From IMG/VR virus record IMGVR_UViG_3300017814_000173: a stretch of 64,000 bases of DNA; one strand, given 5' to 3'. Made by a program: the position numbers and the translations under genes. The notes below the pieces were generated by a model, which had not been told where the DNA came from, did not search any database, and worked only from the letters and a program-made list of their open reading frames with translations. The stretch comes from an uncultured virus (IMG/VR IMGVR_UViG_3300017814_000173). Taxonomy: Duplodnaviria; Heunggongvirae; Uroviricota; Caudoviricetes. Below are positions 3,432-41,326 of the stretch, piece by piece; the first letter of the stretch is position 1; each line of letters starts with the position of its first letter.

Positions 3432-3446
3432 TGGAACATGCTCCGA

Positions 3447-3468
3447 AAAAAGGTCACAAAAAGGTCAC
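3447..3468. repeat. Tandem 11-bp direct repeat AAAAAGGTCAC x2, candidate integrase arm-binding sites
   Basis: Seen directly, between the integrase start and the tRNA 3' end. Confidence 0.6.
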
Positions 3469-3531
3469 ACCCGACCGTTCTTCGGCACTAAAATGAACCA
3501 TTCTTGAGGGTAGATTTGAGGGATAAAAAAA

Positions 3532-3617
<86 letters not shown>

Positions 3618-3732
3618 ATTGTAAATCGTTGGATAAGATTTACAAGGGTTATAGAATAACCGAATTCTTGCTCATTACAAGCGAAGTCCCAAAAAAAAGC
3701 GCAAAAAGTTAAAAAAAACTGGCGCTAATCGT

Positions 3733-5496: not shown

Positions 5497-5583
5497 GCGT
5501 GGTGAATTTCTGTCGGGGCTTTTTTCGCAGTCCCAACGGTGGAATTTCACACTTCGTTGGTGTAAATTGAGAATGGTGTTTAT

Positions 5584-5666
5584 GCCTGAATGGCGGAATG
5601 GCAGACGCAACGGACTTAAAATCCGTTGGCCGCAAGGTCGTGCGGGTTCGACTCCCGCTTCAGGCA
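5584..5666 (+). tRNA. tRNA-Leu(TAA); CCA not encoded (followed by CTA); probable prophage attachment site
   Basis: GCCTGAA...ACGGA-CTTAAAA-TCCGT anticodon arm, GTTCGACTC T-loop. Confidence 0.95.
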
Positions 5667-5763
5667 CTATCTTCAATATCAAGTACTTATATATCCAAAA
5701 TGCCCGACAAAATGTTAATAATTTGTTGTTTTTGTTACGCCCTGATACGCTATGATATGGTTA

Positions 5764-26505: not shown

Positions 26506-28743
26506 CTATTTTCCGGCGGACTTGACCATGCCGCGGAAATCCTGTTCCCGGATGCCGATATCGTAGTAGATCCGGAAACTGATGCCGAGGTGGTTGAAGT
26601 CCACTTCGCCGGATTCGACGGTCGGCTGGCGGCGGCCTTTCAGGTAGCCGATTTCGAACGTGTCCACCTGGGCCGGGTCGCCGAACAGGTACCATTCGAC
26701 CGAACTGTCGAGGTACGGGCTGGCGATCGGTTCGAGGTTGTACGTGGACACCACGTTCAGCGTGCTGAGCTTCTGCGCCTGGGCACCGGTGGTGGCGTCG
26801 CCGCCGGTGAACCCGAGCACCACGCCCTTGACCAGCTCGATGGCCGTGCCTTCGAGGTCCGGATGGACCAGCAGGAAGCGCGGCAGAACGTTGATCGGTT
26901 CTTTGTCGGCATCGACCTGCTTCAGGAACAGCGCGCGACCGGCTTTCAGCGCATCGAGCGACAGGGCGCTGGTCGTGCCGGAGAGGTAGTTCTTATGAGT
27001 CGTGCTGAACAGATTGTTCGGATTGGCGATCAGCCGGGCGAAGAACAGCCGGTCGATCAGCCGGGCGGCCTTGTTGCCCATTCCCTGCGGGACGCGCATG
27101 AACGCGCCGAGATCGTCGTTGATAATCATCTTGCGGGTCAAGGTGAGAATTTTCCCGTAAGTATCGAGCTGGTTGGTCGCCAGTTCTTCCTTCAACCCGC
27201 CGTGTTTGAATTCGCCGTCCTGCGCCAGCGGCTGGAGTTCGCCAACATCGGTCATCCGATAGCGTTCGGACACCTTGAAGTCATTAAGGTCGCCTTCGGA
27301 ACAGAGTCGGGTGGCGATCACCGGCTGCTGGCCGTAGGCCTGACGCAACACTTTGTTGGCGACGTTCGAAAGAATACCCGGCAGGCTGACCGTTGAAAAA
27401 GCGGCTTTGATGGTGTCGTTGTCGAACGACGCCGAGACGGGCTTGTGTTCCATCTGGGCGCAGTAGGTCACTAGTTCCCGGAGCGACAGATCGCGCATTT
27501 TTTCGGCGGCGGTCATGGTCTGCTCGTTGAACTGCGCCTTGATCGACGTCTCGGCAATACCTTCGCGGAAGCAGAGGGCGCATTCGAGCAGATTGCGGTT
27601 GATTTCCGCCCCGGCGTGAACGATGATATTACCCTGAAATTCCGGACGTTTGGCCCGAACTTCCTTGACTGCGGCGATCGCCTGATTCGTGGCTTCGACG
27701 GTCCAGCCGCCGTTGACGGCCAGCGCGCGAATTTCGGCATAGTCGTCGCCGCAGGCGGCTTCGATGGCCTTGATCCGCTTGTTTTCCATTTCGGCGGCCT
27801 TGAGCGCTTCGGCGCGAACGGCGTCATGAATGGCCGACTGGAACTGCGGATCCTGCGGATTGAACGCGGCCTGCACCGTCTGCGCAATCGGCGATACCGG
27901 AACCGGAGTCATGACCGGGGCAGCGGCCTGTACCGGGGCGACCGGAGTCGCGGCCGGCGTGCCGGAAGCGGCGCTTCCCGCGGACTCCTGCACGCCGGGG
28001 AAATAACCGGCGGCGAACGCGAAATCCGCCTGAACGGCTTCCAGCGTCAGGTTCAAGGTTTTGAGGTGTGCCAGAATGGCTTCCTCGGTGGAATCGGCCC
28101 CCAGTTTGAACCGGGCGATCAGATAGGCTTTGAGCTTTTTGTCCATAATCGTTCCTTCAGGTTGATGGTTGGACGGATTGGGAGGCAAATGCATGGTGAG
28201 CGAGGCGGCGATTTTGAGGGTAGTATCGGCATCCGCCCCCACCGCGACGACGGAAATTTCCCGCAACGTGCTGCGGGTCACAAGCAGAAACGGGCCGTCC
28301 TGCCGACGGCCGTTGACGAATTCGGATTGACCGGACTCTACTTCCCGGGTGGCGATGGTGCTGCCGCCGATCGACAGTTGCCACGGAATGGTCTTGCCCT
28401 GGGCGACAATTTCCCGCGACAGATCGGTTTCCTGATGAATGGCGCCGCCGGTCACGGTCAGCTGATTGCCCTTGGCAACCTGCAGTGCGCCCAGCCGGTA
28501 GTGCGGATCGTTGATGTGGCTGTAGAGCAGCGGCACCTGCGGCGAAACTTCCATGCCGGAAATATCCAGCACCAACGGAATTTCGCTCCACGGCTGCCGG
28601 ATCTTACCGCCGGCATAGGCGACGCCGCCGGTGATGTTTTTCAGATTGACCGGAGCGGCGGCGGCTTCGATGATCTGAAATTCATTGGCGGAGCCGGACG
28701 GTTCCGCCAGCGCAAAATTAAAATCAGGCAGCGTCTTTTTCAT
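26506..28743 (-). CDS. Prohead protease-scaffold-major capsid fusion
   Basis: Protease-like N-terminus (AYAGG, LLYSH, WQLSIG, LREISVVAVGAD), Pro/Ala linker, capsid region (DFK, TYGKILTLTRKMIINDDLGAF, DFRG). Confidence 0.9.
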   Translation of the reverse strand: MKKTLPDFNFALAEPSGSANEFQIIEAAAAPVNLKNITGGVAYAGGKIRQPWSEIPLVLDISGMEVSPQVPLLYSHINDPHYRLGALQVAKGNQLTVTGGAIHQETDLSREIVAQGKTIPWQLSIGGSTIATREVESGQSEFVNGRRQDGPFLLVTRSTLREISVVAVGADADTTLKIAASLTMHLPPNPSNHQPEGTIMDKKLKAYLIARFKLGADSTEEAILAHLKTLNLTLEAVQADFAFAAGYFPGVQESAGSAASGTPAATPVAPVQAAAPVMTPVPVSPIAQTVQAAFNPQDPQFQSAIHDAVRAEALKAAEMENKRIKAIEAACGDDYAEIRALAVNGGWTVEATNQAIAAVKEVRAKRPEFQGNIIVHAGAEINRNLLECALCFREGIAETSIKAQFNEQTMTAAEKMRDLSLRELVTYCAQMEHKPVSASFDNDTIKAAFSTVSLPGILSNVANKVLRQAYGQQPVIATRLCSEGDLNDFKVSERYRMTDVGELQPLAQDGEFKHGGLKEELATNQLDTYGKILTLTRKMIINDDLGAFMRVPQGMGNKAARLIDRLFFARLIANPNNLFSTTHKNYLSGTTSALSLDALKAGRALFLKQVDADKEPINVLPRFLLVHPDLEGTAIELVKGVVLGFTGGDATTGAQAQKLSTLNVVSTYNLEPIASPYLDSSVEWYLFGDPAQVDTFEIGYLKGRRQPTVESGEVDFNHLGISFRIYYDIGIREQDFRGMVKSAGK

Positions 28744-30364
28744 CGTCATTCTCCTTTTCATCGGAATTCGAGGAGGCGGCCGGAGCTGCTTTCGCGGCGG
28801 CGGCGGCCGGCATGTCAGCCTCGGTCAAGCCGTTTTGGGCCAGCATCTTTTTCCGCAGCGCGGCCAGTTCGATTTCACAGGCCAGTTTTTTCTTTTTCTC
28901 CGCGTAATTCTGGTCCATTTCAGCTTCCCAGTCGCGGCCTTCCTGACCGAGTTCGTTGGCCAGATTGGTGGAGGCGTTGGTCAGCCGGATATCCTGCGCC
29001 TGCGCTTCTTTCAGCGGGTCGATATGTTCGGAGCCGTCCCAGAACCATTTGTGCGGCGTCCAATAGGTGTCGAGCTTGGAATAATCGGCGGGATAGAAGA
29101 TCCGGTCTTCCGCCTCCCAGGCCGGATAAACCCGGTCCAGAATGGTGATTTCGATATCGTCGCGTTCGATCTCGATCGAACGGAAATAGGTCTGGTGATC
29201 GAGGCGGCCGGAGGAATAGTTGTACTCTTTGGAATTGCCCTTGGCCACGTTGAACGGCATGTTGAACGGGCGCGCCATTTCGTTGATGTTCATATCGACG
29301 AACTGCGCGTGGGTGGCGGTGGGCTGTTCCGGCTTGAGCTGGTTGATTTTATAACCGCCGGGCATGCACAATCCGCCGTTGCGTTCAATCGGAACCACGT
29401 CCATCGGCCGGTACTGAGCTTCACGCTTCTTTTCCTGTGCCTCCGGCGAATTGGACTGCCCGTAAATTTCATCCGCCATGTCTTCCGGCGGGGCGTCGGT
29501 GGTCAGCAGAAACGAGATGCTGGCGGCGTTGCGGGCGCATTCCAGCACCGACTGCGTATAACTGCGCAGGTTGGCGAACACGCCGAGCGTCGGCGTGATT
29601 TCCGGCACGCCGCGATGCTGTCCGGGCCGGTTTTCGTTGAAATAATGAATTACATAGTTGGCCGGGATTTCATTGAATTCGCGCGGAAAATAGTAACCGC
29701 TGCCGGGATGACACTTCAAGAATTTGTAAGTAACAGGATTGCCAGTTTCATCCAACACAATGCCGTCGACTTCTTTGGGCTGGCCGTTCGGCCAGGCGTC
29801 GAAGACGGTGACAAAAAGGTCGGACGTCACCTGCTCGGTTTCGTAGAGGGTAAGATCGAGTTTGACCGGGCCGGGAACCTGCAAATTGGTGCTCATCACC
29901 AGAAACGCTTCGCCGGCCTCGGCCTTGGCGCGTCGGGCAATCCGCAATTTTTTGGCGAACTTGGTATCGTGCATCCACTGCGCGAACCGGGCTTCCCGGC
30001 GGCGCGCGGCATCCGGATCGGCAATCTGCAGTTGCAGCCGCGGACCGGTGCCGACGGTGTCCCGCGCCAGCGTATCGACCATGCCGGTACCGTAGCCGTT
30101 GTTGGCAATTTCGTAGCGCGATTTGATCACCAGCGAATGCCGGACCGCCGGATTCAACGCGGCGTCGGCGCTTAAACCGTCGGCATTTTCCCAGTGCCGG
30201 GCGTTGTCGGACGTGGTCCGGGCGGCGTCGAACCGGGCGCGAACCACCTGATTGTGCGACGAATGGACCAAGCCGCCATCCCCGGCGGACAAATGCCGGC
30301 CTGCGGCGGCGGAATCGCCGTGAAACAGGCCGTGCCAGACGGCGGCAATGGAAGCGCCGATCAT
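28724..30364 (-). CDS. Portal protein, lambda family
   Basis: SRYEIANNGY, GEAF, DGIVLD..G.PV.Y, RPGQHRGVP, NYSSGR, IDPLKE. Confidence 0.93.
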   Translation of the reverse strand: MIGASIAAVWHGLFHGDSAAAGRHLSAGDGGLVHSSHNQVVRARFDAARTTSDNARHWENADGLSADAALNPAVRHSLVIKSRYEIANNGYGTGMVDTLARDTVGTGPRLQLQIADPDAARRREARFAQWMHDTKFAKKLRIARRAKAEAGEAFLVMSTNLQVPGPVKLDLTLYETEQVTSDLFVTVFDAWPNGQPKEVDGIVLDETGNPVTYKFLKCHPGSGYYFPREFNEIPANYVIHYFNENRPGQHRGVPEITPTLGVFANLRSYTQSVLECARNAASISFLLTTDAPPEDMADEIYGQSNSPEAQEKKREAQYRPMDVVPIERNGGLCMPGGYKINQLKPEQPTATHAQFVDMNINEMARPFNMPFNVAKGNSKEYNYSSGRLDHQTYFRSIEIERDDIEITILDRVYPAWEAEDRIFYPADYSKLDTYWTPHKWFWDGSEHIDPLKEAQAQDIRLTNASTNLANELGQEGRDWEAEMDQNYAEKKKKLACEIELAALRKKMLAQNGLTEADMPAAAAAKAAPAASSNSDEKENDDEKDAA

Positions 30365-30564
30365 CGGGCGGTCCCCGGCGGGGAAAATTTACAGAAACGG
30401 ACGGCACGCCACGGATTTTTTGCGACGCGGCGATTGGCCAGATAGCGATCGGCTGCGATCAGGTCGGGCAGCGGCCGGGCGGTGACTTTTTCGCCGTCGA
30501 TTTCATAGGATTCCGGATTGCCCGCGGCGTCGCGGATGTTCTGTTCCAGCCCCGAATCAGCCAT
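30361..30564 (-). CDS. gpW-like head completion protein
   Basis: 67 aa directly upstream of portal; SYEIDGEKV...LPDLIAADRY. Confidence 0.7.
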   Translation of the reverse strand: MADSGLEQNIRDAAGNPESYEIDGEKVTARPLPDLIAADRYLANRRVAKNPWRAVRFCKFSPPGTAR

Positions 30565-30585
30565 ACCAGACTCTCCCGTTGAAGT

Positions 30586-30628
30586 TTAAAAACGGTCTCC
30601 GGATGCCGGATCGGGAATCCGGAGACCG
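30586..30628 (-). terminator. Candidate intrinsic terminator upstream of the structural operon
   Basis: Perfect 12-bp stem CGGTCTCCGGAT/ATCCGGAGACCG followed by TTTTT on the minus strand. Confidence 0.55.
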
Positions 30629-30741
30629 CGTCAACCCGCGCCGGCGGCCAAGCAGACGTGAGATTATCAATTATATTGACCGGAAAAATAAAAACTGTGC
30701 AGATAATTTTAAGAAAATTAGGAAAATTATCAGTTTTAGTA

Positions 30742-30770
30742 TTGACTGCGTATCATATACGCATTATAAT
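30742..30770 (+). promoter_or_regulatory. Sigma70 promoter with palindromic operator
   Basis: TTGACT-17-TATAAT; inverted repeat TGCGTAT-cat-ATACGCA (30747-30763). Confidence 0.8.
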
Positions 30771-30814
30771 AATTGCAGGTGGTAATAATAAAAACAGCAA
30801 CGGAGAAACGAAGT

Positions 30815-31147
30815 ATGAACCAGAAAACGCAGGAAGAATTATCCGCCCATTGCGAAACGCTGACCCGGGTAATCCGTCAGACCAATGAAATCGCCCAGAA
30901 TGAACCCTATATCCCATCGGAAATAGTCATGCGCGAGGGAATTAATCATCTGTCCGATGCCATTGATTATTTCAAAGACGCCGCTGAATACGCCAACGGC
31001 TGGCTGCATGACCGTCCGCTGCCGAATCAATATACCGCGGCCTCCACCACGAAAGAACAGCTCGAAAAACTGGCGCGCAAATGCGATGTGCTGTCACCGA
31101 CCATTGCCATGCACCTGCGCCAAATCATCAGCAATATCAAAGCATAA
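30815..31147 (+). CDS. Hypothetical small helical protein
   Basis: RBS GGAG; first gene after the promoter. Confidence 0.7.
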   Translation: MNQKTQEELSAHCETLTRVIRQTNEIAQNEPYIPSEIVMREGINHLSDAIDYFKDAAEYANGWLHDRPLPNQYTAASTTKEQLEKLARKCDVLSPTIAMHLRQIISNIKA

Positions 31148-31201
31148 GAAATTGAAAATAGTTTTGCAAGTGACACAGTATATATAAAATATGGAGGGAA
31201 T

Positions 31202-31579
31202 ATGAGCAAATACACGTTAATCGGACCGGATCAAGATCAAGATGATCTTGATGTAATGACTGCTTACAAAGGACTGAGTGATTTATGGAGTCGTTACGAT
31301 GTCGGAGAAATTGACGATCCGGGATCGGTAGAAATCGATTCCGAGGAGTTTGTCAAGGAAGAAGACATTCCGCACAACCCCGACGAAGTTGTAGAAGAAC
31401 GTTATGGGGAACATTTCGGAATAACGCTGTTCTGCAAATTTCAACAAGACGACAAGGGGGGGAAACGGTTCATTGCCGCCTACGAGCACAATGGACAAGA
31501 AATCCCGCTGGATGAGATTTCTCAAATCAGTGACGATTTTGCCGATGCCATTCATATGGATTTTACAAATTGCTTATGA
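31202..31579 (+). CDS. Highly acidic small protein (candidate DNA mimic / anti-defence protein)
   Basis: RBS GGAGG; hand count 32 D/E vs 9 K/R in 125 aa. Confidence 0.7.
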   Translation: MSKYTLIGPDQDQDDLDVMTAYKGLSDLWSRYDVGEIDDPGSVEIDSEEFVKEEDIPHNPDEVVEERYGEHFGITLFCKFQQDDKGGKRFIAAYEHNGQEIPLDEISQISDDFADAIHMDFTNCL

Positions 31580-31758
31580 ACCTGGAAGATTTTATCACTA
31601 AACATAAACTATCCGGACGGGAAACCGCCCGAATCCTGCTGGTCACGGAAGGGGCCGTGCGTCACTGGCGCGACGGTTCCAATCCGTTGCCGCCGTCCAT
31701 ATCCCTGTTACTGTTGTTGCTGGACGATTATTTTCAGCGGCATCAACACTGGCCCTAA
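31576..31758 (+). CDS. Small XRE-like HTH regulator
   Basis: LSGRETARILLVTEGAVRHWRDG..P.P; ATGA-coupled. Confidence 0.8.
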   Translation: MNLEDFITKHKLSGRETARILLVTEGAVRHWRDGSNPLPPSISLLLLLLDDYFQRHQHWP

Positions 31759-31934
31759 AGTTTTGACAATTCCTGCTGTAAAAATTTTGCCCGATCGACG
31801 CGATCGGCGGGAATGAGCCTTCGATCACATTCATAACTCTTTAAGGTTTCCAGAGAAATCTTCATTTTATCGGCAAAAGCTTGCCGGGTCAACCCGGTAG
31901 CTTTTCGAATGGCTTGCAATTCTTTTCCGGTCAT
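31755..31934 (-). CDS. Small XRE-family HTH regulator
   Basis: MTGKELQAIRKATGLTRQAFADKMKISLETLKSYE; ATGA-coupled. Confidence 0.85.
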   Translation of the reverse strand: MTGKELQAIRKATGLTRQAFADKMKISLETLKSYECDRRLIPADRVDRAKFLQQELSKL

Positions 31935-32389
31935 ACTTCCCGGCCTCCGGTGGCGGCAAACGGTTTCATACAAGGAAGCCGCCGTACCCGGCGGTACTTG
32001 CAAACACCTTGAAATACCATTTTTCCGGCATCATAAATGAATAATTGAAACTCCCGGCCTTCATCTTCCAGGGCCGGCAACCGATCAAACTGTTGATTAA
32101 CCATTTGGATTACCCACGGCGTATCCGGGTCATCGTCAAACAGAAATTCAAATGCGTCTTTGGCATTCTTTTCCGTCCACCATCCGCGGGAAACAACAAT
32201 TTCAGTGGCATTCCGAGCCGCTTCCAGCATCGGTTTGACCAATTCGCCGTTCGTTCCGCTATCAACCAGCAGCCGGAAAGCCCCGGCATTAATGGAACAA
32301 AAAAACAAACCCTTGCCGTTCGGTTCCGAATCCCAATAATTCGAACTGACGATTTGCTGCCCGTTATTATGAATTTCAAGCATGGACAT
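31931..32389 (-). CDS. Hypothetical protein
   Basis: RBS GGAG; NYWDSE...FFCSINAGAFRLL. Confidence 0.7.
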   Translation of the reverse strand: MSMLEIHNNGQQIVSSNYWDSEPNGKGLFFCSINAGAFRLLVDSGTNGELVKPMLEAARNATEIVVSRGWWTEKNAKDAFEFLFDDDPDTPWVIQMVNQQFDRLPALEDEGREFQLFIYDAGKMVFQGVCKYRRVRRLPCMKPFAATGGREV

Positions 32390-32894
32390 GAGGTTTCTCC
32401 TTTGGTTCAATTTCCCAACTGGAAGAATACCCATAATTGGCAAAAGCGTAAGCAATCCCGGCCTGTTGTTGCAACCGGATATATTCTTCCGACTCCATGC
32501 CTAAATTATGGCAAATTTCTTCATCTTCAAGTCCCAATTCCTTTAACTTAATTACCAGATCGGACATTTTTTCCACCTGGTGCATCCCTTTAATGCGATT
32601 CATCAAGACCGTCAGCTGAACCGCATCGTGATAAGATAGCTTCAGCACAACCACGGAAGTCTCCGTTTCTCCCATGCGTTTAAGAGCTTCATACCGGTGA
32701 TAACCGTCAATAATTCGATATTTCTTTTTTTCTTCCACCCAAACCACCAGAATCGGAAACAAAAATCCATATTTTCGAATGCAATCCTGTAACAAATCCA
32801 TTTCCGTTTCCGGCATCTTGTTCGGATTGTAATCATTGGCAAAAAGATCGTCCAATTTTACTACCTGTGCTTCTATTGCATGCTGCGCAATCAT
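32376..32894 (-). CDS. ParB/Srx-like protein (IbrB/YbdM-like)
   Basis: ANDYNPN, YGFLFPILV, IIDGYHR, NRIKGMH, LGM..EE..RL. Confidence 0.85.
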   Translation of the reverse strand: MIAQHAIEAQVVKLDDLFANDYNPNKMPETEMDLLQDCIRKYGFLFPILVVWVEEKKKYRIIDGYHRYEALKRMGETETSVVVLKLSYHDAVQLTVLMNRIKGMHQVEKMSDLVIKLKELGLEDEEICHNLGMESEEYIRLQQQAGIAYAFANYGYSSSWEIEPKEKPHVHA

Positions 32895-33967
32895 AATAAC
32901 GCTCTCCATTTGGCAATCAATTTTTGATTTTTTTCAGCGCGTTTCGTATCGAATGGACGGGAATTTTCATAGTCGTTGATCAACAGTTGTCCGACCTGCT
33001 GTTGATACATATGTTCCGTCGGCTCCTGTTTATCAAAGCGTTTTTTAAAACGTGTCCGATGCTCCGGATTGGGAAGATTATTCAGCATAAAATCGCGGAA
33101 CTCCTTCCAGTTGTGATAATGTTCCGGAAGTTGCTTGTTGTTAAATACCAGCCGTTCGCTGGCATAACGGGCCGCCGTGGCAACCCCGCCAATCCGCCGG
33201 CAAAGACGGCTATAGGTATCCGGTTCATAACGCGGCAGATCGACCAGACACTTAAAAGATTTCTCATGAATCAAATTGGAAACCCGCATCCGGTTGTAAA
33301 TACTCTTATTGTCCATGAACATCAAGTCGTAAATTTTGTTATATACGATGTTGTATTCATAAATAAAATGCCAGACGTCATAAACCGTCCAGTCGTAAAT
33401 CGGATAAAAACGATTGATTTTTCCTTCCACGGTGCTCCAGCGCAAGCCATCCCAGCCGGGATGTTTGGTTACCGCCCGAAAGCGGGTAATGCTTTCATCG
33501 GCTCGCAATCCGACCAGGTAGGCCGCTTCGGGATGATTGTTTTCATGCCAGCGGAAAAAGTCATAAAAGCGTTGCGGATATTTTACCGGAACGGACTGAA
33601 TGGCTGCGGCATCTTTTTCCCGCATCCAATGTTCTCCAGGACCCCAGGCATACAAAAAATAATCGGAATAGCTGGTGGCATTGGTCATATAGATCGGAAC
33701 CTGAAACCATTGCGGAATGACGTTCGGATGAAGCATCATCCGGCGAATCAGTTCAATCGACGACTGATATTCCGCCTCCTGATCAAGAAAAAAACACACA
33801 ATCTTGCGTTTCCGTCTCATGGCTTCCTGCAAGCACAACGAATACAAAACCGTACTGTCTTTCCCAGAGGATACCGAAACGTTAATCGTTTCGAAGCGAT
33901 CAAACAGCATAGCAATGCGTTCCCGGGCTGCGACCAATACATTTTTGGAAGTGTTATAAATTTTCAT
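32891..33967 (-). CDS. PAPS-reductase-like PP-loop protein (IbrA/YbdN/DUF3440-like)
   Basis: SVSSGKDS, FLDQEAEY, VGLRADES..R, YPIYDWT..DVW, MRVS. Confidence 0.85.
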   Translation of the reverse strand: MKIYNTSKNVLVAARERIAMLFDRFETINVSVSSGKDSTVLYSLCLQEAMRRKRKIVCFFLDQEAEYQSSIELIRRMMLHPNVIPQWFQVPIYMTNATSYSDYFLYAWGPGEHWMREKDAAAIQSVPVKYPQRFYDFFRWHENNHPEAAYLVGLRADESITRFRAVTKHPGWDGLRWSTVEGKINRFYPIYDWTVYDVWHFIYEYNIVYNKIYDLMFMDNKSIYNRMRVSNLIHEKSFKCLVDLPRYEPDTYSRLCRRIGGVATAARYASERLVFNNKQLPEHYHNWKEFRDFMLNNLPNPEHRTRFKKRFDKQEPTEHMYQQQVGQLLINDYENSRPFDTKRAEKNQKLIAKWRALL

Positions 33968-34709
33968 GAGCAATTACCCGATTATAAATATCTTTTCTTC
34001 GCATATTTTCTTCCACCACAAAACGATAGATTTTCAGATCGGGAACTTTTATCACTCCACCCATTCGAAACACATCATAATCTACCGATAGGTCATATTT
34101 GGAGTTCGCCAATTTGAGCAGATTGTTGAGCCATAATTTGGGCGTGGAATATTTTCCAAAGACAAAATTTTTTGCTTCCTCATACCATTGTAAATCAAAC
34201 AAATCAATCTCGGTAAATTCAAACGTCGTATTTAATGGTTCCAGGTCGGAATAAGTATTGGAAAGATAAGCCCCGATATTTTTTCCGGACAGCCGGCAAT
34301 CTTCTTTTTCCCGATAAAACCAATCTTTCCATTCTCCTTCAATAGGATAACTGTAGGACGCCCCAAAATGATTATTATTGGTATAAAGATAGTGAAAAAA
34401 CAACCGCCATGGTTCGCCGATAAAAGGACTGTTGTCAATGCTTATTTTGGGAACATTCGACGATAAGGTAGTAAGGTATTCATGAACCATATCACAACGA
34501 TTGGCCGGATTAATCATCCGGTTCAATCCCACTAAAATAAATTTCGGCGGTTTGATATTGGGATATTCGACGCGAAACTTATTGAATTCCATATATTCAA
34601 CCCCGGAAATTTCCGGAGGAACATAATCGGCGTGATAAATGCAGAAAGTGCCCGGCGGGACTTCAAAATTAAGCACCGGATGCGAAGTATCTTTAATGAA
34701 TTGAATCAT
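33954..34709 (-). CDS. Hypothetical protein in the coupled operon
   Basis: 251 aa; overlaps both neighbours. Confidence 0.75.
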   Translation of the reverse strand: MIQFIKDTSHPVLNFEVPPGTFCIYHADYVPPEISGVEYMEFNKFRVEYPNIKPPKFILVGLNRMINPANRCDMVHEYLTTLSSNVPKISIDNSPFIGEPWRLFFHYLYTNNNHFGASYSYPIEGEWKDWFYREKEDCRLSGKNIGAYLSNTYSDLEPLNTTFEFTEIDLFDLQWYEEAKNFVFGKYSTPKLWLNNLLKLANSKYDLSVDYDVFRMGGVIKVPDLKIYRFVVEENMRRKDIYNRVIAHENL

Positions 34710-35274
34710 GTTTGTAACCCATTAAATTTTTCGCAATATAAAAAACGCATTTTCCGTTAATATCCGACATGACAAAACTTTTTTGATGTTCGGAAAATAT
34801 CTTTCCCGTATTGCCGTATCCACAGCAGAAGTCACCAACCCGGTCATAACGCTCCGCCAATTTCTCAATAAAATCGTAATTGGTTTTGAATCGGTAATTA
34901 TGGGTATCATTCCACCCGATTAAATTGGTCGGGTATCCATATAATATAATTTTTTCCATCCGCTCGGGGACCGGCAATTTTTTTAATGCATGACTTCCGA
35001 TAATCAGCCAAAGAGGACGATTCCAATGATTGATAATTTTTGTCAACGCGTCCAAATATTCCTCGTAAGTAGTCCGCTCGTGGTCCGCCCGATCCATAAA
35101 TTTAAAATATCCGTCCAGCCATGCCGGTTCCGCATAGAGAACATCGCAATCCGAATAATATTTTGGGAAGTTTCCGCAAATATCATGTCGAAAAACAATA
35201 GATTCTGTTTGATAAAAATCCAATTCATCCTGAATAGATAATTCTTTTTTTAATGCGCTATGATAAACTTTCAT
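34693..35274 (-). CDS. Small SAM-dependent methyltransferase-like protein
   Basis: DVLYAEPAW (DPPW-like motif IV) precedes VGDFCCGYG (motif I), then SDIN. Confidence 0.6.
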   Translation of the reverse strand: MKVYHSALKKELSIQDELDFYQTESIVFRHDICGNFPKYYSDCDVLYAEPAWLDGYFKFMDRADHERTTYEEYLDALTKIINHWNRPLWLIIGSHALKKLPVPERMEKIILYGYPTNLIGWNDTHNYRFKTNYDFIEKLAERYDRVGDFCCGYGNTGKIFSEHQKSFVMSDINGKCVFYIAKNLMGYKHDSIH

Positions 35275-36683
35275 AATGATTGAATCAGCTTTTTCAGCTT
35301 GCCTTTATCTTTAATTTTTTCGACTTCATCTTTAAATTCCGCCAGAACGTTTCCCTTATTTAATAAAGAAATCTCAATTCGATCGTCGATCGATTGATTG
35401 CAATGAATATCAATGTACGTCACTGTCCGCATTTGACCAGGTCGATGATTTCGGTCTTCCGCCTGCAGACGTTCACTATATTTGAATCCATTGTTGTAAA
35501 ATATCACATAATCGGAGATGACCAGCTGATTCAAGCCGTGTCCACCACAACTCGGCGTCAGTACAATAAACCGGGCATCCTGTTCAAAACGTTCAATCTG
35601 AACCGCACGTTGCTTTTCAGTTAATTGTCCGGAATATCGAGCACAACAATCCGGCCCATATTCGGCAGTCAACGCAGCCACGATGGAATCAATATCGTAC
35701 TGGAATTTTGCCCAAATCGTCACCTTGTGATCGGCAGGAATTTCATAAATCACGTTCATCAGCGCATTAATTCGACCATGCGGAATGGGAATAATTCCGC
35801 CCTCTTCATCCGTCGTATAACCGGAAACGATCTTTTGCAACTCGGTAAAAAGCTGAAAAATCGCATAACTATCGAATTCATCGCGCTCCAGTCGGTCAAA
35901 CGTTTTTTCCTTGGCGTCGTCATAGGCAATTTGCTGTTCTACCGACATCAGGATATGGAACGTTGTGTACAATTTTTTCGGTAAATCCAGACAGTCTGCT
36001 TTCTGAATCTGGTAGACATAAGGCTGAATCTTGGCCGCCAGATATTCCGTATTGTGAGCCCGGACAATCTTTCCGGGGAACTTGTCCGAATATTCCAGAT
36101 GGTTCCGGGCGAAACTGTAAAACGAATTATAACCCAAAATTTTCGGCGACAAGAAACGCATCTGAGAAAAAAGATCGACCACCCCCTGCGTCAACGGCGT
36201 CCCGGTCAAAATTAGGCGGTACCGGGCCTTTTGAGCAATGGCGGTAATCCAGTCCGTCCGGGCCGCGCGATAGCCCTTGATGTAGGTCGACTCATCGACC
36301 ACGACCATACTGTCGACAGTAATAACCGCGGCCGCCGCAAATTTCAGTCTCGCCGAGGCGCTCATACTCTCAATCCCAATCAGATACCACTGACGATCCT
36401 GCGGAACCGTGGGGGCGGTCGTTTTATCGTCAAAACGGTAAATATCTTTCATGCTGCAATCGGTATGCCGGATAATCTGTTGCTCGATGGTTCGTTTTAC
36501 GGATACCGGCTCGAACCAGATCACGCGGCGGATGCGGTCGGCGCGATAGTGCGCCAGCGCGATCGTTGTCAGGCTCTTTCCCGTTCCCATTTCCATAAAC
36601 AGGGCGCCGATTCGCGTATGCGCCTGCTTAGAAAGCGCATCTCTTTGATGAGACATCAAAGCAGTTTTTACTTCAAATTTCAT
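35271..36683 (-). CDS. SNF2-family helicase/translocase
   Basis: MEMGTGKS, VDES, LTGTP, GHGLN, QAEDRNHRPGQ. Confidence 0.92.
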   Translation of the reverse strand: MKFEVKTALMSHQRDALSKQAHTRIGALFMEMGTGKSLTTIALAHYRADRIRRVIWFEPVSVKRTIEQQIIRHTDCSMKDIYRFDDKTTAPTVPQDRQWYLIGIESMSASARLKFAAAAVITVDSMVVVDESTYIKGYRAARTDWITAIAQKARYRLILTGTPLTQGVVDLFSQMRFLSPKILGYNSFYSFARNHLEYSDKFPGKIVRAHNTEYLAAKIQPYVYQIQKADCLDLPKKLYTTFHILMSVEQQIAYDDAKEKTFDRLERDEFDSYAIFQLFTELQKIVSGYTTDEEGGIIPIPHGRINALMNVIYEIPADHKVTIWAKFQYDIDSIVAALTAEYGPDCCARYSGQLTEKQRAVQIERFEQDARFIVLTPSCGGHGLNQLVISDYVIFYNNGFKYSERLQAEDRNHRPGQMRTVTYIDIHCNQSIDDRIEISLLNKGNVLAEFKDEVEKIKDKGKLKKLIQSL

Positions 36684-37702
36684 TCTCTAAACTCATCGGC
36701 AACATCTGGATTTTTAGGGATGTCAAGCTCTTCCGGTTTGTTTTTCGGTTTTCCTACTTGACTGTTCGGCACAAGTTTCGGAATTACCGTGATCATGCGT
36801 TCACGAGCAGAAATCATTTGTTCAATTAAAATTTTAGCACCGGAACAAATTTTGAAATCGTTCATTGCAGAAAAATCAAGGATTTCCTGAAATCGCTCCG
36901 CCGGGACCGTCATGGTTCCCGCATGCCACTTTGAACCTGGCAATTTTTTAGCTTCGCTATACCAATCGGCATCCGTTTTGCGATCCCACGAAATTGCAAA
37001 GCGACCGGTATAAGGGCCGGAAACAATTCTTTTAATCTGCCGAGTATTTTCCGGTTCATATTTTCCGGCGATCACTTTTCCCCTAATTTCATTATCCAAG
37101 ATAAGCACCGGGATTCCGATCATCAGAATACGAATTCCCATTTCTACCGCTTTATCAAGGTCTGCTTTTCTGGTCCAGCATTCTCCGGACCAGGTAAATT
37201 TATGTTCATGCGCCAGTAATCTAAAATCTTCTCTCCTTTCCGGAAAATGCAGCGACAACTCCCCCTCTTTATACTGTATTTCGCAGACGGTTTCCGTTTT
37301 TGTCTTCGGCGGACGTAAAGTTGCTTCCTCCCTGGCGACCAATGCAGCAGGTTCCTTGTCAAGTTTTTTAACCGGATCAAGTAGTTCACAAACGGAAATT
37401 GCAGTTTGTTTCTCTAGCTCAAACGACAATTCATTCCGGTTGTCAATCCACCACGACGCCGACTCTGTGCTTTTAACCTTTTCGAGTGCAAGATCATATG
37501 CACGACGGAAAAAATCATTGACTTTTTCCGGGGTGTCGCATCCTCGTGACTTGAAATATTCAATCATTGCGCGTTCATCGACCACGCCAAAAACTTGACG
37601 TTGATTATAGATAACGCGATGTTTGATGCGATCCCAGGTAGGCCAGATCACCGCATCGCGGATTTTCCCCGCCCACTCGATTTGTTTTTCAGATCCGCGC
37701 AT
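36680..37702 (-). CDS. Hypothetical protein coupled to SNF2 (possible HARP-like C-terminal part)
   Basis: GSEKQIEWA..IR, WWIDNR, AKKLPGSKW; ATGA overlap. Confidence 0.7.
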   Translation of the reverse strand: MRGSEKQIEWAGKIRDAVIWPTWDRIKHRVIYNQRQVFGVVDERAMIEYFKSRGCDTPEKVNDFFRRAYDLALEKVKSTESASWWIDNRNELSFELEKQTAISVCELLDPVKKLDKEPAALVAREEATLRPPKTKTETVCEIQYKEGELSLHFPERREDFRLLAHEHKFTWSGECWTRKADLDKAVEMGIRILMIGIPVLILDNEIRGKVIAGKYEPENTRQIKRIVSGPYTGRFAISWDRKTDADWYSEAKKLPGSKWHAGTMTVPAERFQEILDFSAMNDFKICSGAKILIEQMISARERMITVIPKLVPNSQVGKPKNKPEELDIPKNPDVADEFRE

Positions 37703-37704
37703 GA

Positions 37705-38079
37705 TTATTTTTTGTCCTCAATGATTTTCTGCAACCGTGCCGCGACCTTTGAACTCCGACTTACTACTTTCCCGGACACGCAGTCGATGTAAGTTCCATC
37801 GATTTCATTCCAAAGCATCCGGCGTTTGTTATTGCTGTTTTCATCTTCAGTGACAATCATCGGAAATACCTTGTCGGTATCCACGTAAACGCGAACCTTA
37901 TCGCCGCCGAGCCAGATTTTCCCATATTGCAAAAACTTCTGATATTTTTCAGTGGCATCGACTTTTGCCACCTGTGCTTTTTCTGCTACGTCCAAATTTT
38001 CTTTTTGCCGCAATTCCATTTCTTCACGTCGGCAATTGATTTCTTCTTCACTCATTTCAACATGTGGTATTCTGATCAT
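37705..38079 (-). CDS. Hypothetical protein
   Basis: RBS GAGG; KIW..GDKVRVY. Confidence 0.65.
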   Translation of the reverse strand: MIRIPHVEMSEEEINCRREEMELRQKENLDVAEKAQVAKVDATEKYQKFLQYGKIWLGGDKVRVYVDTDKVFPMIVTEDENSNNKRRMLWNEIDGTYIDCVSGKVVSRSSKVAARLQKIIEDKK

Positions 38080-38087
38080 TTCAACCT

Positions 38088-38744
38088 CTAAAAAGTATGT
38101 TGCCGAGTAATTTGGGTCGTTCCGTCCGGCATTGCAAATTCCGTCATGATATCACAACTGCATTCTTCTTGGGGATTATTGCAATCTTCCGTCCATGTCC
38201 GCAATACTACTTTTTTACCGGTCTTCCGGGCTTCTTCAAACTTCTGCAGCCGAGCGGAATCGGCGGCATCCTGCTTGGCTTTTTTCTCCGCCAACGCCGG
38301 CGCGGCAAACTTTTCCGCATCTGAGTAGGTAAATTCTTCGCCAAACTGATCAATAAACTTACTATCGACCAACACCCCCCACATATCCACTTCCTTGGCA
38401 ATCCCCAATTTCTGCAACAATTCTGCTTCCTTGCCAAAAACCTGCCAACCGCTCATATATTCTCCGTCATGATAGGAAGCCTTGATTTTTTTCTCTCCAG
38501 ATTTAATTCGGGCAATCAAATCATCGGCCATTTTTTGAGCTTCCGCGCTGACTTGATCCCAAACCTCACGGCTGATGCAAACAAAAGCACTGGAACACTG
38601 TACCCCATCGCATCCCCGCATCGTAGTATACCGAATCCCATAAAAAGTACCCTGCGACGTAATAATTTTAATCTGAGGATCCCCTACCGTATCCACCGAT
38701 GCCAATATCTCCACTTCCGTACCTTTGGTCGTCTTCGTTTTCAT
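38088..38744 (-). CDS. Hypothetical protein, first gene of the island operon
   Basis: RBS AAGGAG; C-terminus W..DCN.P.EECS.D...AMPDG...RQHT. Confidence 0.75.
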   Translation of the reverse strand: MKTKTTKGTEVEILASVDTVGDPQIKIITSQGTFYGIRYTTMRGCDGVQCSSAFVCISREVWDQVSAEAQKMADDLIARIKSGEKKIKASYHDGEYMSGWQVFGKEAELLQKLGIAKEVDMWGVLVDSKFIDQFGEEFTYSDAEKFAAPALAEKKAKQDAADSARLQKFEEARKTGKKVVLRTWTEDCNNPQEECSCDIMTEFAMPDGTTQITRQHTF

Positions 38745-38768
38745 CTGTTTATCTCCTTGTTATAGATA

Positions 38769-38797
38769 ATTGTACACCATTATAGTGTACATGTCAA
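38769..38797 (-). promoter_or_regulatory. Sigma70 promoter with palindromic operator
   Basis: TTGACA-17-TACAAT; inverted repeat TGTACAC-N7-GTGTACA (38771-38791). Confidence 0.8.
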
Positions 38798-38823
38798 TAG
38801 AAAAAGATAAAAAATAGAAAAAA

Positions 38824-41137: not shown

Positions 41138-41326
41138 TCAACGATGCTCCAGCAGATAAGCCAGGTAGGCGAACAGATTGATGGTGCCGTCCGGGTTGGA
41201 CTGCAGGCCGGACGCCAGTTGCCGCCGCAACAACGTCAGCGAAGCCGTTCGCGATCCGGAACGCTGGAGCAGCATCACCAGGTCGTCCGGAGTCAACGCC
41301 GTCAATTTGGGGGATGGGTCATTCAT
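41138..41326 (-). CDS. Small protein, probable terminase small-subunit-like DNA-binding domain
   Basis: Directly upstream of TerL; NPDGTINLFAYLAYL. Confidence 0.55.
   Translation of the reverse strand: MNDPSPKLTALTPDDLVMLLQRSGSRTASLTLLRRQLASGLQSNPDGTINLFAYLAYLLEHR

What the first reader, a model, noticed from the sequence alone, without database searches (positions are those of the whole stretch)
30742..31758. acr-aca-like operon: operator-bearing promoter, two small orphans (one very acidic) and a terminal HTH
Seen: the only plus-strand unit in the prophage. TTGACT-17-TATAAT with a TGCGTAT/ATACGCA palindrome in the spacer, then a 110-aa ORF, a 125-aa ORF with 32 D/E vs 9 K/R, and a coupled 60-aa HTH. 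Known: anti-CRISPR loci have this layout (Aca represses via a promoter palindrome) and can sit among head genes. Acidic DNA mimics include Ocr, ArdA and AcrIIA4. Inference: possible new anti-CRISPR or anti-restriction proteins.
Basis: partly seen in the sequence, partly recalled or inferred. Interest (0 to 1): 0.75.

Follow-up and report, generated by a model that had tools for sequence, protein, structure and literature searches.

The report
Self-repressed prophage operon, likely anti-defence
A prophage of an uncultured Victivallales bacterium carries a small three-gene operon built like the anti-CRISPR locus of Listeria phages: a strong promoter with a built-in palindrome, two proteins with no known relatives, and a small DNA-binding repressor at the end; what the two proteins do is still unknown.

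Summary
TTGACT-17-TATAAT (30742-30770) is one of only two 11-of-12 sigma-70-like promoters in the 64-kb window. A perfect 7-bp-arm palindrome fills its spacer. It is followed by ORF1 (110 aa), ORF2 (125 aa, 32 D/E vs 9 K/R, pI 4.05) and an ATGA-coupled 60-aa ORF3.

ORF1 and ORF2 are true orphans: the only matches are their own near-identical copies. Their folds could not be modelled with confidence, so their function was not established.

ORF3 belongs to a small family of 60-67-aa HTH proteins from Victivallales mobile elements (leave-one-out HMM, E = 2e-12). In the PDB and in 50,697 phage genomes the family's best match is the N-terminal repressor domain of AcrIIA1. ORF3 alone does not reach AcrIIA1.

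The AcrIIA3-AcrIIA2-AcrIIA1 operon of Listeria phage A118 has the same promoter plan: TTGACT, a 17-nt spacer filled by a 7-bp-arm palindrome, then the -10 box.

The cassette lies at the edge of an 8-kb low-GC island in a variable cargo hotspot between terminase and gpW/portal. It is not part of the neighbouring SNF2/PAPS-reductase/ParB module.

Odds: autoregulated Aca-type operon about 0.7; anti-defence payload about 0.4. Rivals are a toxin-antitoxin or exclusion module, or a regulatory switch. It is a good candidate, not a demonstrated anti-CRISPR.

The parts
30742..30770 (+). Sigma-70-type core promoter: -35 TTGACT (30742-30747), 17-nt spacer, -10 TATAAT (30765-30770)
   Evidence: Matches 11 of 12. 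One of only two such sites in the window on both strands. Identical in the second prophage G002.
30747..30763 (.). Perfect palindrome TGCGTAT-cat-ATACGCA filling the promoter spacer; candidate operator
   Evidence: Unique in the window at up to 3 mismatches. Chance about 0.0016 per spacer. Same layout as the A118 acr promoter. Binding by ORF3 is inferred, not shown.
30815..31147 (+). ORF1, 110 aa, pI 5.8, orphan; predicted all-helical
   Evidence: GGAG at 30802-30805 precedes the ATG. Only its own cluster is found among 5.8 billion protein clusters. AF2 gives pLDDT 67.7 with helices 3-29, 34-60, 80-93 and 95-106. No fold match at E <= 0.001. Three synonymous and one non-synonymous difference from G002.
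31202..31579 (+). ORF2, 125 aa, very acidic (32 D/E, 9 K/R, pI 4.05), orphan
   Evidence: GGAGG at 31193-31197. An exhaustive HMMER search of 1.84 billion representatives finds only itself. No Pfam, PHROG, NCBIfam, PADLOC or PDB hit. AF2 pLDDT is 49.5, a low-confidence alpha/beta model. Best VIA Z is 3.1.
31576..31758 (+). ORF3, 60 aa, Cro/C1-type HTH of an AcrIIA1-NTD-like family; candidate autorepressor (Aca-like)
   Evidence: ATGA overlap with the ORF2 stop. A leave-one-out HMM of four relatives scores 42 bits, E = 2e-12, aligned over residues 1-60. Four of the five family members hit Pfam HTH_3. The family profile's best PDB hit is AcrIIA1.
31755..31934 (-). Context: convergent 59-aa XRE HTH gene, last gene of the island's minus-strand operon; its stop overlaps the ORF3 stop by 4 nt
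   Evidence: HTH_31 E = 2e-5. ATGA-coupled to the 174-aa ORF at 31931-32455. Not similar to ORF3. No terminator-like site was found between the two operons.
30593..30628 (-). Context: hairpin followed by a T-run on the minus strand, between the cassette and gpW (30361-30564)
   Evidence: I2: 18-nt arms, 89% complementary. A terminator role is inferred.
38769..38797 (-). Context: the other 11-of-12 promoter (TTGACA-17-TACAAT), at the head of the island's 10-gene operon, with its own perfect 7-bp inverted repeat TGTACAC-tataatg-GTGTACA (38771-38791)
   Evidence: The homologous operon in L120 has TTGACT-17-TACAAT with TTGTACGC-tttaag-GCGTACAA, and that locus lacks ORF1-3.

Best explanation
The cassette is a self-contained, self-repressed accessory operon of the acr-aca type.

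Shown: a near-consensus promoter whose 17-nt spacer is a perfect palindrome drives two small orphan proteins and a translationally coupled 60-aa HTH protein. All three genes are kept under purifying selection in two diverged prophages. The cassette lies in a variable cargo hotspot between terminase and gpW/portal. It points against the late genes and is independent of the neighbouring SNF2/PAPS-reductase/ParB module.

Inferred: on entry or induction the promoter fires at full strength. ORF3 then accumulates, binds the palindrome as a dimer, occludes RNA polymerase and throttles the operon. AcrIIA1's N-terminal domain and the Aca proteins act this way.

Inferred more weakly: ORF1 and/or ORF2 are inhibitors of a host defence system such as CRISPR-Cas, type I R-M or BREX. 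The very acidic ORF2 is the better candidate and could act as a DNA mimic that blocks a DNA-binding defence protein.

My odds: autoregulated operon with ORF3 as repressor about 0.7; anti-defence payload about 0.4; CRISPR specifically about 0.15-0.2; ORF2 as a DNA mimic about 0.25.
For: Promoter and palindrome. The palindrome occurs only here in the window.

Gene coupling and ribosome-binding sites.

Purifying selection: 5 synonymous and 2 non-synonymous differences from G002. By my arithmetic P is about 0.013 if 75% of sites were non-synonymous under neutrality.

ORF3 family membership: E = 2e-12. Relatives lie in Victivallales mobile elements. In G154 and G233 the HTH gene is again last, after small ORFs. 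All 6 of those upstream ORFs lack any Pfam or PHROG hit, and none resembles ORF1 or ORF2.

Link to AcrIIA1: the family profile's best PDB hit is AcrIIA1, 5Y69/5Y6A, at E = 1.2e-5 (identity of the entries checked in PMC5758886). Family member G233 gives tblastn hits to AcrIIA1 genes of Listeria phages at 45% identity over 47 aa, E = 8e-4 against 2.3 Gb. Pairwise E is 1.75e-11 for G233 and 2.3e-9 for G013.

A118 locus: AcrIIA3, an AcrIIA2-family gene and AcrIIA1 as the terminal gene, opposite in direction to the lysis genes. Its promoter is TTGACT, a 17-nt spacer made of ACTACGA-ttat-TCGTAGT, then TATAGT.

Published mechanism: AcrIIA1-NTD binds a conserved promoter palindrome and represses, and NTD-only homologues exist (10.1101/787200, passages). 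An inverted repeat within the core promoter is general for Aca families (PMC9410906 abstract).

Other points: the locus meets the operational acr-operon criteria (PMC7319584). ORF2 is exceptionally acidic. The hotspot in relatives carries anti-restriction and defence cargo: C5 methyltransferases in 6 of 11 loci, and AbiTii in one. Cas1 is present in 120 of 251 Victivallales genomes.
Against: ORF1 and ORF2 have no similarity to any known Acr, anti-restriction or other family. Their folds could not be modelled with confidence, so nothing positive ties them to defence inhibition.

ORF3 alone does not detect AcrIIA1 or any PDB or phage protein. The link runs through relatives. The same profile also hits HTH antitoxins and phage regulators: PezA 1.4e-4, Xre/MbcA 0.015, CII 0.026, HipB 0.037, Cro 0.07.

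In two of the four relatives the HTH gene is not terminal. In G252 it stands alone next to tRNA-Lys, and in G013 it precedes small ORFs.

Aca-like genes occur widely without acr genes (PMC9410906 abstract).

Cas1 was found in 0 of the 5 genomes of the GTDB family of the closest relative, G003. These are incomplete MAGs.

No terminator-like site follows ORF3, so the operon runs into the convergent XRE gene. That fits a regulatory role as well.

Sigma-70 consensus rules are untested in Lentisphaerota.
Confidence: 0.4

Rival explanations
1. A toxin-antitoxin, abortive-infection or superinfection-exclusion module. The prophage would use it to protect its host, or itself, against other phages. One of ORF1/ORF2 would be an effector, the acidic ORF2 an antitoxin or immunity protein, and ORF3 the transcriptional regulator.
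For: The same hotspot in related prophages holds defence-like cargo: AbiTii with Bflower in L135 and a KAP NTPase in L137. The ORF3-family profile also hits HTH antitoxins (PezA 1.4e-4, Xre/MbcA 0.015, HipB 0.037, MqsA 0.24), and NCBIfam gives MqsA at E = 0.025. Small acidic partners are typical of antitoxins and immunity proteins (established knowledge, recalled). Autoregulation through a promoter palindrome is also the rule for type II TA operons (recalled).
Against: Neither ORF has a toxin-like domain or any PADLOC hit. ORF3 is only 60 aa and has no room for a toxin-binding domain. A three-gene order with the HTH last is unusual for type II TA (recalled). ORF1's model is a plain helical bundle.
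Confidence: 0.2
2. A regulatory switch for the island or the prophage. The cassette and the island's 10-gene operon would be two convergent, overlapping transcription units, each with a strong promoter, its own palindromic operator and a terminal small HTH. They would control each other by cross-repression or transcriptional interference. ORF1 or ORF2 would act as an anti-repressor or co-regulator.
For: The only two 11-of-12 promoters in the window sit at the two ends of the island and face each other. Each has a perfect 7-bp inverted repeat in its spacer. The stop codons of ORF3 and the XRE gene overlap by 4 nt, and no terminator-like site lies between them. ORF1 has a weak C-terminal HTH-like signal (HTH_10, E = 0.14, residues 82-108; helices 80-93 and 95-106). 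A 10-of-12 promoter-like site at 31892 on the minus strand points antisense into the cassette.
Against: The homologous SNF2/PAPS-reductase/ParB operon in L120 keeps the same type of promoter and operator (TGTAC..GTACA) but has no ORF1-3, so that module does not need the cassette. The cassette palindrome occurs nowhere else in the window. In 251 Victivallales genomes its per-genome counts are about the same as those of the reversed-pattern control, so it is not a host-wide box such as an SOS box (counts not summed).
Confidence: 0.2
3. Another kind of moron: small proteins that change host physiology or the phage life cycle in a way unrelated to defence, carried together with a generic Cro-like regulator.
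For: The hotspot also carries non-defence cargo: BlaI/BlaR-like genes with ECF sigma/FecR in L131 and a serine recombinase in L136. The payload proteins are complete orphans.
Against: This has no positive support. It does not explain the close architectural match to acr operons or the extreme acidity of ORF2.
Confidence: 0.15
4. Chance ORFs and a chance promoter in AT-rich spacer DNA; no genes at all.
For: There are no homologues outside two near-identical prophages. No RNA evidence exists.
Against: Ribosome-binding sites are correctly placed and an ATGA coupling is present. Five of the 7 differences from G002 are synonymous in the called frames. ORF3 matches an independent family end to end. 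The combination of promoter and palindrome is improbable by chance.
Confidence: 0.03

Closest known systems
acrIIA locus of Listeria temperate phages (A118: AcrIIA3, AcrIIA2-family, AcrIIA1), autorepressed by the AcrIIA1 N-terminal HTH domain
   Same: Both have three small genes on one strand with the HTH-bearing gene last, opposite in direction to the adjacent late genes. The promoter plan is the same: TTGACT, a 17-nt spacer almost wholly made of a 7-bp-arm palindrome, then the -10 box. The ORF3 family is the nearest sequence relative of AcrIIA1-NTD that I found, both in the PDB and in phage genomes. NTD-only homologues of 70-80 aa are described (10.1101/787200).
   Different: ORF3 lacks the Cas9-binding C-terminal domain and cannot be aligned pairwise with AcrIIA1. 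The palindrome sequence differs. ORF1 and ORF2 are unrelated to AcrIIA2 and AcrIIA3. The host is Lentisphaerota, not Firmicutes. The locus lies between terminase and gpW, not between the lysis genes and integrase. No activity is known. I read the A118 palindrome from the sequence and could not see the paper's figure that highlights the validated site.
Aca1-Aca13 anti-CRISPR-associated repressors and acr-aca operons in general
   Same: A small HTH protein (under 150 aa) lies downstream of small variable genes, with an inverted repeat inside the core promoter and a mobile-element location (PMC9410906 abstract and passages; PMC7319584).
   Different: The only Aca model available to me, Pfam Aca2_YdiL, gave no hit for ORF3. 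It weakly hits the neighbouring XRE protein instead (E = 0.0074). The published Aca HMMs were not available here.
Acidic DNA-mimic inhibitors (Ocr, ArdA, AcrIIA4, AcrF2; names and properties recalled, not from a call)
   Same: ORF2 is small and strongly negative (net -23 over 125 aa, pI 4.05).
   Different: There is no sequence or family similarity. The model is too poor to judge the charge pattern or fold (pLDDT 49.5; best Z 3.1).
Type II toxin-antitoxin operons with Xre/HipB/PezA-type HTH antitoxins
   Same: The HTH class is the same, and autoregulation runs through a promoter palindrome. The family profile hits PezA, Xre/MbcA and HipB.
   Different: No toxin domain was found. The HTH protein is a bare 60-aa domain encoded last.

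Membership tests
acr-aca operon (operational definition of AcrFinder, PMC7319584) | All genes on the same strand, all proteins under 200 aa, Aca under 150 aa | tested here: met
   The proteins are 110, 125 and 60 aa, all on the plus strand. Criteria read in passages.
acr-aca operon (operational definition of AcrFinder, PMC7319584) | Intergenic distances under 150 bp | tested here: met
   54 nt between ORF1 and ORF2; a 4-nt overlap between ORF2 and ORF3.
acr-aca operon (operational definition of AcrFinder, PMC7319584) | At least one gene homologous to a known Acr or Aca | tested here: inconclusive
   ORF1 and ORF2 have no homologue of any kind. ORF3 is similar to AcrIIA1-NTD only through its family, not on its own.
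acr-aca operon (operational definition of AcrFinder, PMC7319584) | Aca candidate carries a Pfam HTH domain (E < 1e-2, coverage > 0.5) | tested here: inconclusive
   ORF3's best Pfam hit is Sigma70_r4_2 at E = 0.13, so this is not met by ORF3 itself. Four of its 5 family members hit HTH_3, best 2.3e-7.
acr-aca operon | Located in a phage, prophage or other mobile element | tested here: met
   The cassette lies between terminase gpA (38824-41136) and gpW/portal (28724-30564) of a lambda-like prophage, in a cargo hotspot.
acr-aca operon | Inverted repeat within the core promoter that the Aca binds and through which it represses | tested here: inconclusive
   The repeat is present and fills the spacer. 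Binding and repression cannot be tested with these tools.
acr-aca operon | Host carries CRISPR-Cas, ideally with self-targeting spacers against the prophage | not testable with these tools
   The window's assembly and the 743,851-nt host contig are not held. In relatives, Cas1 is in 120 of 251 genomes of the order and 0 of 5 of the nearest family.
acr-aca operon | A payload protein inhibits a CRISPR-Cas system | not testable with these tools
   This needs an experiment.
AcrIIA1 N-terminal-domain-like HTH repressors | Significant sequence similarity to AcrIIA1 residues about 4-72 | tested here: inconclusive
   The family profile gives E = 1.2e-5 against the PDB. G233 is 45% identical over 47 aa. 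ORF3 alone gives no alignment. ORF3's membership in the family is E = 2e-12.
AcrIIA1 N-terminal-domain-like HTH repressors | Cognate palindrome in the promoter of its own operon | tested here: met
   The layout is the same as in phage A118. The sequence of the palindrome differs.
DNA-mimic anti-restriction proteins (Ocr/ArdA-like) | Strong net negative charge in a small protein | tested here: met
   Net -23 over 125 aa, pI 4.05.
DNA-mimic anti-restriction proteins (Ocr/ArdA-like) | Homology to, or fold of, a known mimic; charges arrayed like DNA phosphates | tested here: inconclusive
   No Pfam or PHROG hit at E <= 1. The model's pLDDT is 49.5, so the fold search (best Z 3.1) carries no weight.
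Type II toxin-antitoxin system | A recognisable toxin domain next to an antitoxin | tested here: inconclusive
   No toxin family was found in Pfam, NCBIfam, PHROGs or PADLOC. Orphan toxins cannot be excluded.

The most novel reading that the evidence does not exclude
ORF1 and/or ORF2 found new families of anti-defence proteins, and these would be the first from a phage of the PVC superphylum (Lentisphaerota). ORF2 would be an acidic inhibitor with a fold not yet seen. ORF3 would define an AcrIIA1-NTD-like Aca family outside Firmicutes, usable as bait for further anti-defence loci in Victivallales mobile elements. There its relatives sit beside other small orphan genes.
Probability: 0.3. Interest if true: 0.65.

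Novelty: new member of a known kind. Interest (0 to 1): 0.5.

Why it matters
If the payload proteins inhibit a defence system, they would be new inhibitor families from a phylum where, to my knowledge, none is described (recalled, not searched). The ORF3 family would then give a marker gene for mining anti-defence loci in Lentisphaerota and related gut and bioreactor bacteria. New Cas or restriction inhibitors are also useful as tools.

The locus also shows that the promoter-embedded-palindrome design of the Listeria acrIIA locus recurs in a distant phylum. The terminase-gpW junction of these prophages is a cargo hotspot worth mining in its own right. If the payload turns out to be something else, the locus is an ordinary autoregulated moron.

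Tried and rejected
Homology for ORF1 and ORF2:
- The word-indexed search of 5.8 billion clusters found only their own clusters.
- The exhaustive HMMER search for ORF2 found only itself.
- tblastn against phages found nothing.
- Six-frame search of 251 Victivallales genomes found nothing.
- PDB sequence search gave nothing for ORF2 and only chance-level rows for ORF1.
- ESM Atlas gave no usable hit, and its own models have pLDDT 0.45 and 0.54.
- Viral and metagenome scans found only the same two prophages.

Structure:
- Structure prediction was not accepting jobs. It accepted jobs.
- The ORF2 model is low-confidence and its VIA-wide search gave nothing above Z 3.1.
- The ORF1 model is moderate. 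Foldseek against PDB and BFVD gave only generic helical bundles at E > 0.4.

Expression: no listed holder of the sequence is on record as RNA. The one possible RNA run, when laid on the stretch, covered only 32308-32530, outside the cassette. This says nothing either way.

SOS-box idea: I asked whether the palindrome is a host operator, with the cassette as an inducible anti-repressor unit like Tum of phage 186 (recalled). At up to 2 mismatches, per-genome counts in 251 Victivallales genomes were about the size of the reversed-pattern control (I did not sum them). I dropped the idea, although a diverged host box is not excluded.

Shared operator among ORF3-family members: their promoters carry different short inverted repeats and no common motif. 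ATACGC upstream of the G233 gene is probably chance.

Other blanks: Rfam found no RNA family in 30300-32100. The search of earlier findings held nothing for this genome. The host contig could not be searched.
Full report
**1. What is in the sequence**

The finding's coordinates are correct. TTGACT (30742-30747), a 17-nt spacer and TATAAT (30765-30770) match the sigma-70 consensus at 11 of 12 positions. A scan of the whole 64-kb window on both strands finds only two sites of that quality, this one and one at 38797 on the minus strand.

The spacer is almost entirely a perfect palindrome, TGCGTAT-cat-ATACGCA (30747-30763). It is unique in the window even at 3 mismatches. The window holds 57 perfect 7+7 inverted repeats with a loop of 0-5. 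In my simulation a 19-nt stretch of local composition carries one with probability 0.0016. The conjunction is therefore not chance.

ORF1 (ATG 30815 to 31147, 110 aa) is preceded by GGAG. The alternative TTG start at 30773 lies inside the promoter. ORF2 (31202-31579, 125 aa) is preceded by GGAGG. ORF3 (ATG 31576 to 31758, 60 aa) overlaps the ORF2 stop as ATGA. ORF2 has 32 D/E and 9 K/R and a pI of 4.05. Its net charge per residue (-0.184) is three times that of the most acidic of the 55 minus-strand ORFs I compared.

**2. Are these real genes?**

A second provirus (IMG/VR record, handle G002) carries the same cassette. Its head genes differ from the window's by about 12%. The cassette differs at 8 positions between 30709 and 31708, and the stretch 31623-39330 is identical. 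This is a recombination mosaic.

Of the 7 differences inside the ORFs, 5 are synonymous and 2 change a residue: S77A in ORF1 and E16A in ORF3. The promoter and palindrome are unchanged. Together with the ribosome-binding sites, the coupling and the family match of ORF3 (section 5), this argues for real genes.

**3. Context**

The host is an uncultured Victivallales bacterium. The flanking RecJ is 78% identical to that of a Victivallales MAG. The prophage is lambda-like and runs on the minus strand:

- terminase large subunit gpA, 38824-41136
- a 67-aa gene in the position where lambda has gpW (position recalled; no family hit), 30361-30564
- portal, 28724-30364
- a protease-capsid fusion, 26506-28761

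Between terminase and gpW lies an 8.2-kb island of 37-48% GC inside a phage of 56-66% GC. The island holds a 10-gene minus-strand operon:

- ORFs of 218, 124 and 340 aa
- an SNF2 helicase
- ORFs of 193 and 251 aa
- a PAPS-reductase/DUF3440 protein
- a ParB-N protein
- a 174-aa ORF
- a 59-aa XRE HTH

That operon starts at the other 11-of-12 promoter, TTGACA-17-TACAAT at 38797. Its spacer carries its own perfect 7-bp inverted repeat, TGTACAC-tataatg-GTGTACA. The cassette is convergent with this operon, and the two terminal stop codons overlap by 4 nt. No terminator-like site lies between them.

**4. The junction is a cargo hotspot, and the cassette is a separate add-on**

A search with the portal matched 46 of 251 Victivallales genomes. 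I fetched 18 places, chosen for contig length rather than at random. In 4 of them terminase abuts gpW/portal. In 11 there is an insert of 1.7-9.8 kb. In 3 no terminase lay within the roughly 12 kb fetched.

The inserts carry the following (60 ORFs from 11 loci):

- C5 DNA methyltransferases in 6 of 11 loci
- AbiTii with Bflower
- a KAP NTPase
- a serine recombinase
- BlaI/BlaR-like genes with ECF sigma/FecR

One locus, L120, carries the SNF2/PAPS-reductase/ParB/174-aa module in the opposite orientation. That copy has the same kind of promoter and operator (TTGACT-17-TACAAT with TTGTACGC-tttaag-GCGTACAA) but no ORF1-3. The neighbouring module therefore works without the cassette, and the cassette's palindrome belongs to the cassette alone.

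**5. ORF3**

Alone, ORF3 gives only weak HTH hits and nothing in the PDB or in phage genomes. Six-frame searches of Victivallales and of the phylum found four relatives of 60-67 aa. All lie in mobile elements:

- G252: next to tRNA-Lys, standing alone.
- G154: the last gene after an integrase and four small ORFs, overlapping the preceding ORF.
- G233: last after ORFs of 161 and 91 aa at a prophage end.
- G013: after an integrase and an excisionase-like gene, followed by small ORFs.

A leave-one-out HMM of these four scores ORF3 at 42 bits, E = 2e-12 among 504 window ORFs, aligned end to end. It does not hit the neighbouring XRE protein. Four of the five family members hit Pfam HTH_3.

The family profile's best hit among 177,635 PDB sequences is 5Y69/5Y6A at E = 1.2e-5, over helices 1-3. 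These entries are AcrIIA1 (PMC5758886, passages). tblastn with the G233 member against 50,697 phage genomes gives 27 records. The best 12 are Listeria phages, at the gene that RefSeq calls AcrIIA1, with 40-45% identity over 47 aa and E = 8e-4 to 6e-3. Pairwise E is 1.75e-11 for G233 and 2.3e-9 for G013, but ORF3 itself does not align.

The link from ORF3 to AcrIIA1 is therefore real but transitive. The same profile also touches PezA, Xre/MbcA, CII, HipB and Cro.

**6. Comparison with the validated system**

In phage A118 the operon is AcrIIA3, an AcrIIA2-family gene and then AcrIIA1, the HTH-bearing gene, last. It points against the lysis genes. Its promoter reads TTGACT, a 17-nt spacer made of ACTACGA-ttat-TCGTAGT, then TATAGT. 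That is the same plan as in the window.

The literature reports the following:

- AcrIIA1-NTD binds a conserved palindrome in this promoter with a KD of about 26-28 nM and represses it.
- The repression is needed for phage fitness.
- NTD-only homologues of 70-80 aa exist (10.1101/787200, passages; figures and supplements not seen, so I infer that the palindrome I read is the validated one).

An inverted repeat within the core promoter is general for Aca families, but aca-like genes also occur without acr genes (PMC9410906, abstract and passages). The cassette meets the operational criteria for acr operons (PMC7319584, passages).

**7. The payload**

ORF1 and ORF2 are orphans. Each has only its own cluster (2 members on 3-4 contigs) among 5.8 billion clusters. 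ORF2 finds only itself among 1.84 billion representatives. Nothing turned up in Pfam, PHROGs, NCBIfam, PADLOC, the PDB, phage genomes or 251 Victivallales genomes.

AF2 without an alignment gives ORF1 as four helices (pLDDT 67.7), with only generic bundle matches. It gives ORF2 as a low-confidence alpha/beta model (pLDDT 49.5) with no match above Z 3.1.

The small ORFs upstream of the other family members (6 of 6) are equally without family hits and unrelated to ORF1 or ORF2. A conserved small HTH next to variable orphan genes in mobile elements is what acr-aca loci look like. It is also what many mobile-element regulatory regions look like.

**8. Weighing the explanations**

Supported:

- The promoter, operator-like palindrome and terminal HTH are firmly established in the sequence.
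- The likeness to the AcrIIA1 system is specific, both in sequence at family level and in promoter plan.
- I give 0.7 to 'autoregulated operon with ORF3 as its repressor'.

Not supported by direct evidence:

- Nothing positive shows what ORF1 and ORF2 do.
- The acidity of ORF2, the hotspot's anti-restriction and defence cargo, and the presence of Cas1 in 120 of 251 genomes of the order make an anti-defence payload the single most likely reading, at about 0.4. Cas1 was found in 0 of 5 genomes of the nearest family.

Open rivals:

- A toxin-antitoxin or exclusion module (0.2).
- A convergent-operon regulatory switch (0.2).
- Some other moron (0.15).

The SOS-box idea did not hold up: per-genome counts of the palindrome pattern are at control level.

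**9. Verdict**

This is a high-quality candidate for a new member of a known kind of system. It comes from an unusual phylum and has fully orphan payload proteins. It is not a demonstrated anti-CRISPR or anti-restriction locus.

Noticed in passing
window 30580-38800: An 8.2-kb low-GC island (37-48% against 56-66%) lies between terminase gpA and gpW. It holds a 10-gene minus-strand operon with an SNF2 helicase (35271-36683), a PAPS-reductase/DUF3440 protein (32891-33973) and a ParB-N protein (32376-32909). These resemble the IbrA/IbrB pair (name recalled). PADLOC recognises no complete defence system here. A homologous module sits in inverted orientation at the same junction in L120.
   Followed up: partly
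window 38769-38797 (minus strand): This is the second of the only two 11-of-12 promoters in the window (TTGACA-17-TACAAT). It has a perfect 7-bp inverted repeat, TGTACAC-tataatg-GTGTACA, across its spacer and stands at the head of the island operon. L120 has the same type of operator. The terminal XRE HTH (31755-31934) is a likely autorepressor.
   Followed up: partly
L120-L137 (Victivallales genomes), terminase-gpW junction: The junction between terminase and gpW/portal is a variable cargo hotspot in related prophages, with inserts from none to more than 10 kb. Cargo includes C5 methyltransferases in 6 of 11 loci, AbiTii with Bflower, a KAP NTPase, a serine recombinase, and BlaI/BlaR with ECF sigma genes.
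   Followed up: partly
window 25209-46000 against G002: The two prophages form a mosaic. Blocks with no differences (31623-39330, about 40500-41000 and 44750-46000) alternate with blocks of up to roughly 12-15% divergence. This indicates recent recombination that carried the island, and partly the cassette, between diverged prophages.
   Followed up: partly
window 31864-31892 (minus strand): A 10-of-12 promoter-like site (TTGACC-17-TAAAAT) with a 6-bp inverted repeat, CGGCAA-gctt-TTGCCG, in its spacer lies inside the XRE coding sequence and points antisense into the cassette. It may be chance.
   Followed up: no
window 30677-30687 and 31923-31933: An 11-nt perfect inverted repeat (TGACCGGAAAA / TTTTCCGGTCA) brackets the cassette plus the XRE gene. 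The right arm sits on the stop codon of the 174-aa ORF. By my estimate chance gives about 0.3 such pairs in this 1.5-kb stretch, so it is not significant on its own.
   Followed up: no
window 30593-30628 (minus strand): A strong hairpin followed by a T-run on the minus strand lies just upstream of gpW. It could stop island or antisense transcripts from entering the head genes unless antitermination acts.
   Followed up: no
window 41319-42680, 52918-54807, 54856-57351: Elsewhere the prophage carries three DNA methyltransferase genes: an N6/N4 enzyme, a C5 enzyme, and an 831-aa ORF that also hits the SNF2 domain. I read this as heavy investment in anti-restriction.
   Followed up: no
window 284-583; 1662-5667: There are 300 N letters at 284-583. 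A tyrosine integrase with DUF6538 (1662-3431), tRNA-Leu(CAG) at 3532-3617, RecJ at 3733-5496 and tRNA-Leu(TAA) at 5584-5667 lie left of the prophage, which begins at about 6365. The integrase may belong to another element.
   Followed up: no
L144:10452-11377 (G252): Next to the stand-alone ORF3-family gene beside tRNA-Lys lies a pair of ORFs, 118 aa and 182 aa with an HTH_31 domain. The pair looks like a toxin-antitoxin or regulator pair at the edge of an integrated element.
   Followed up: no
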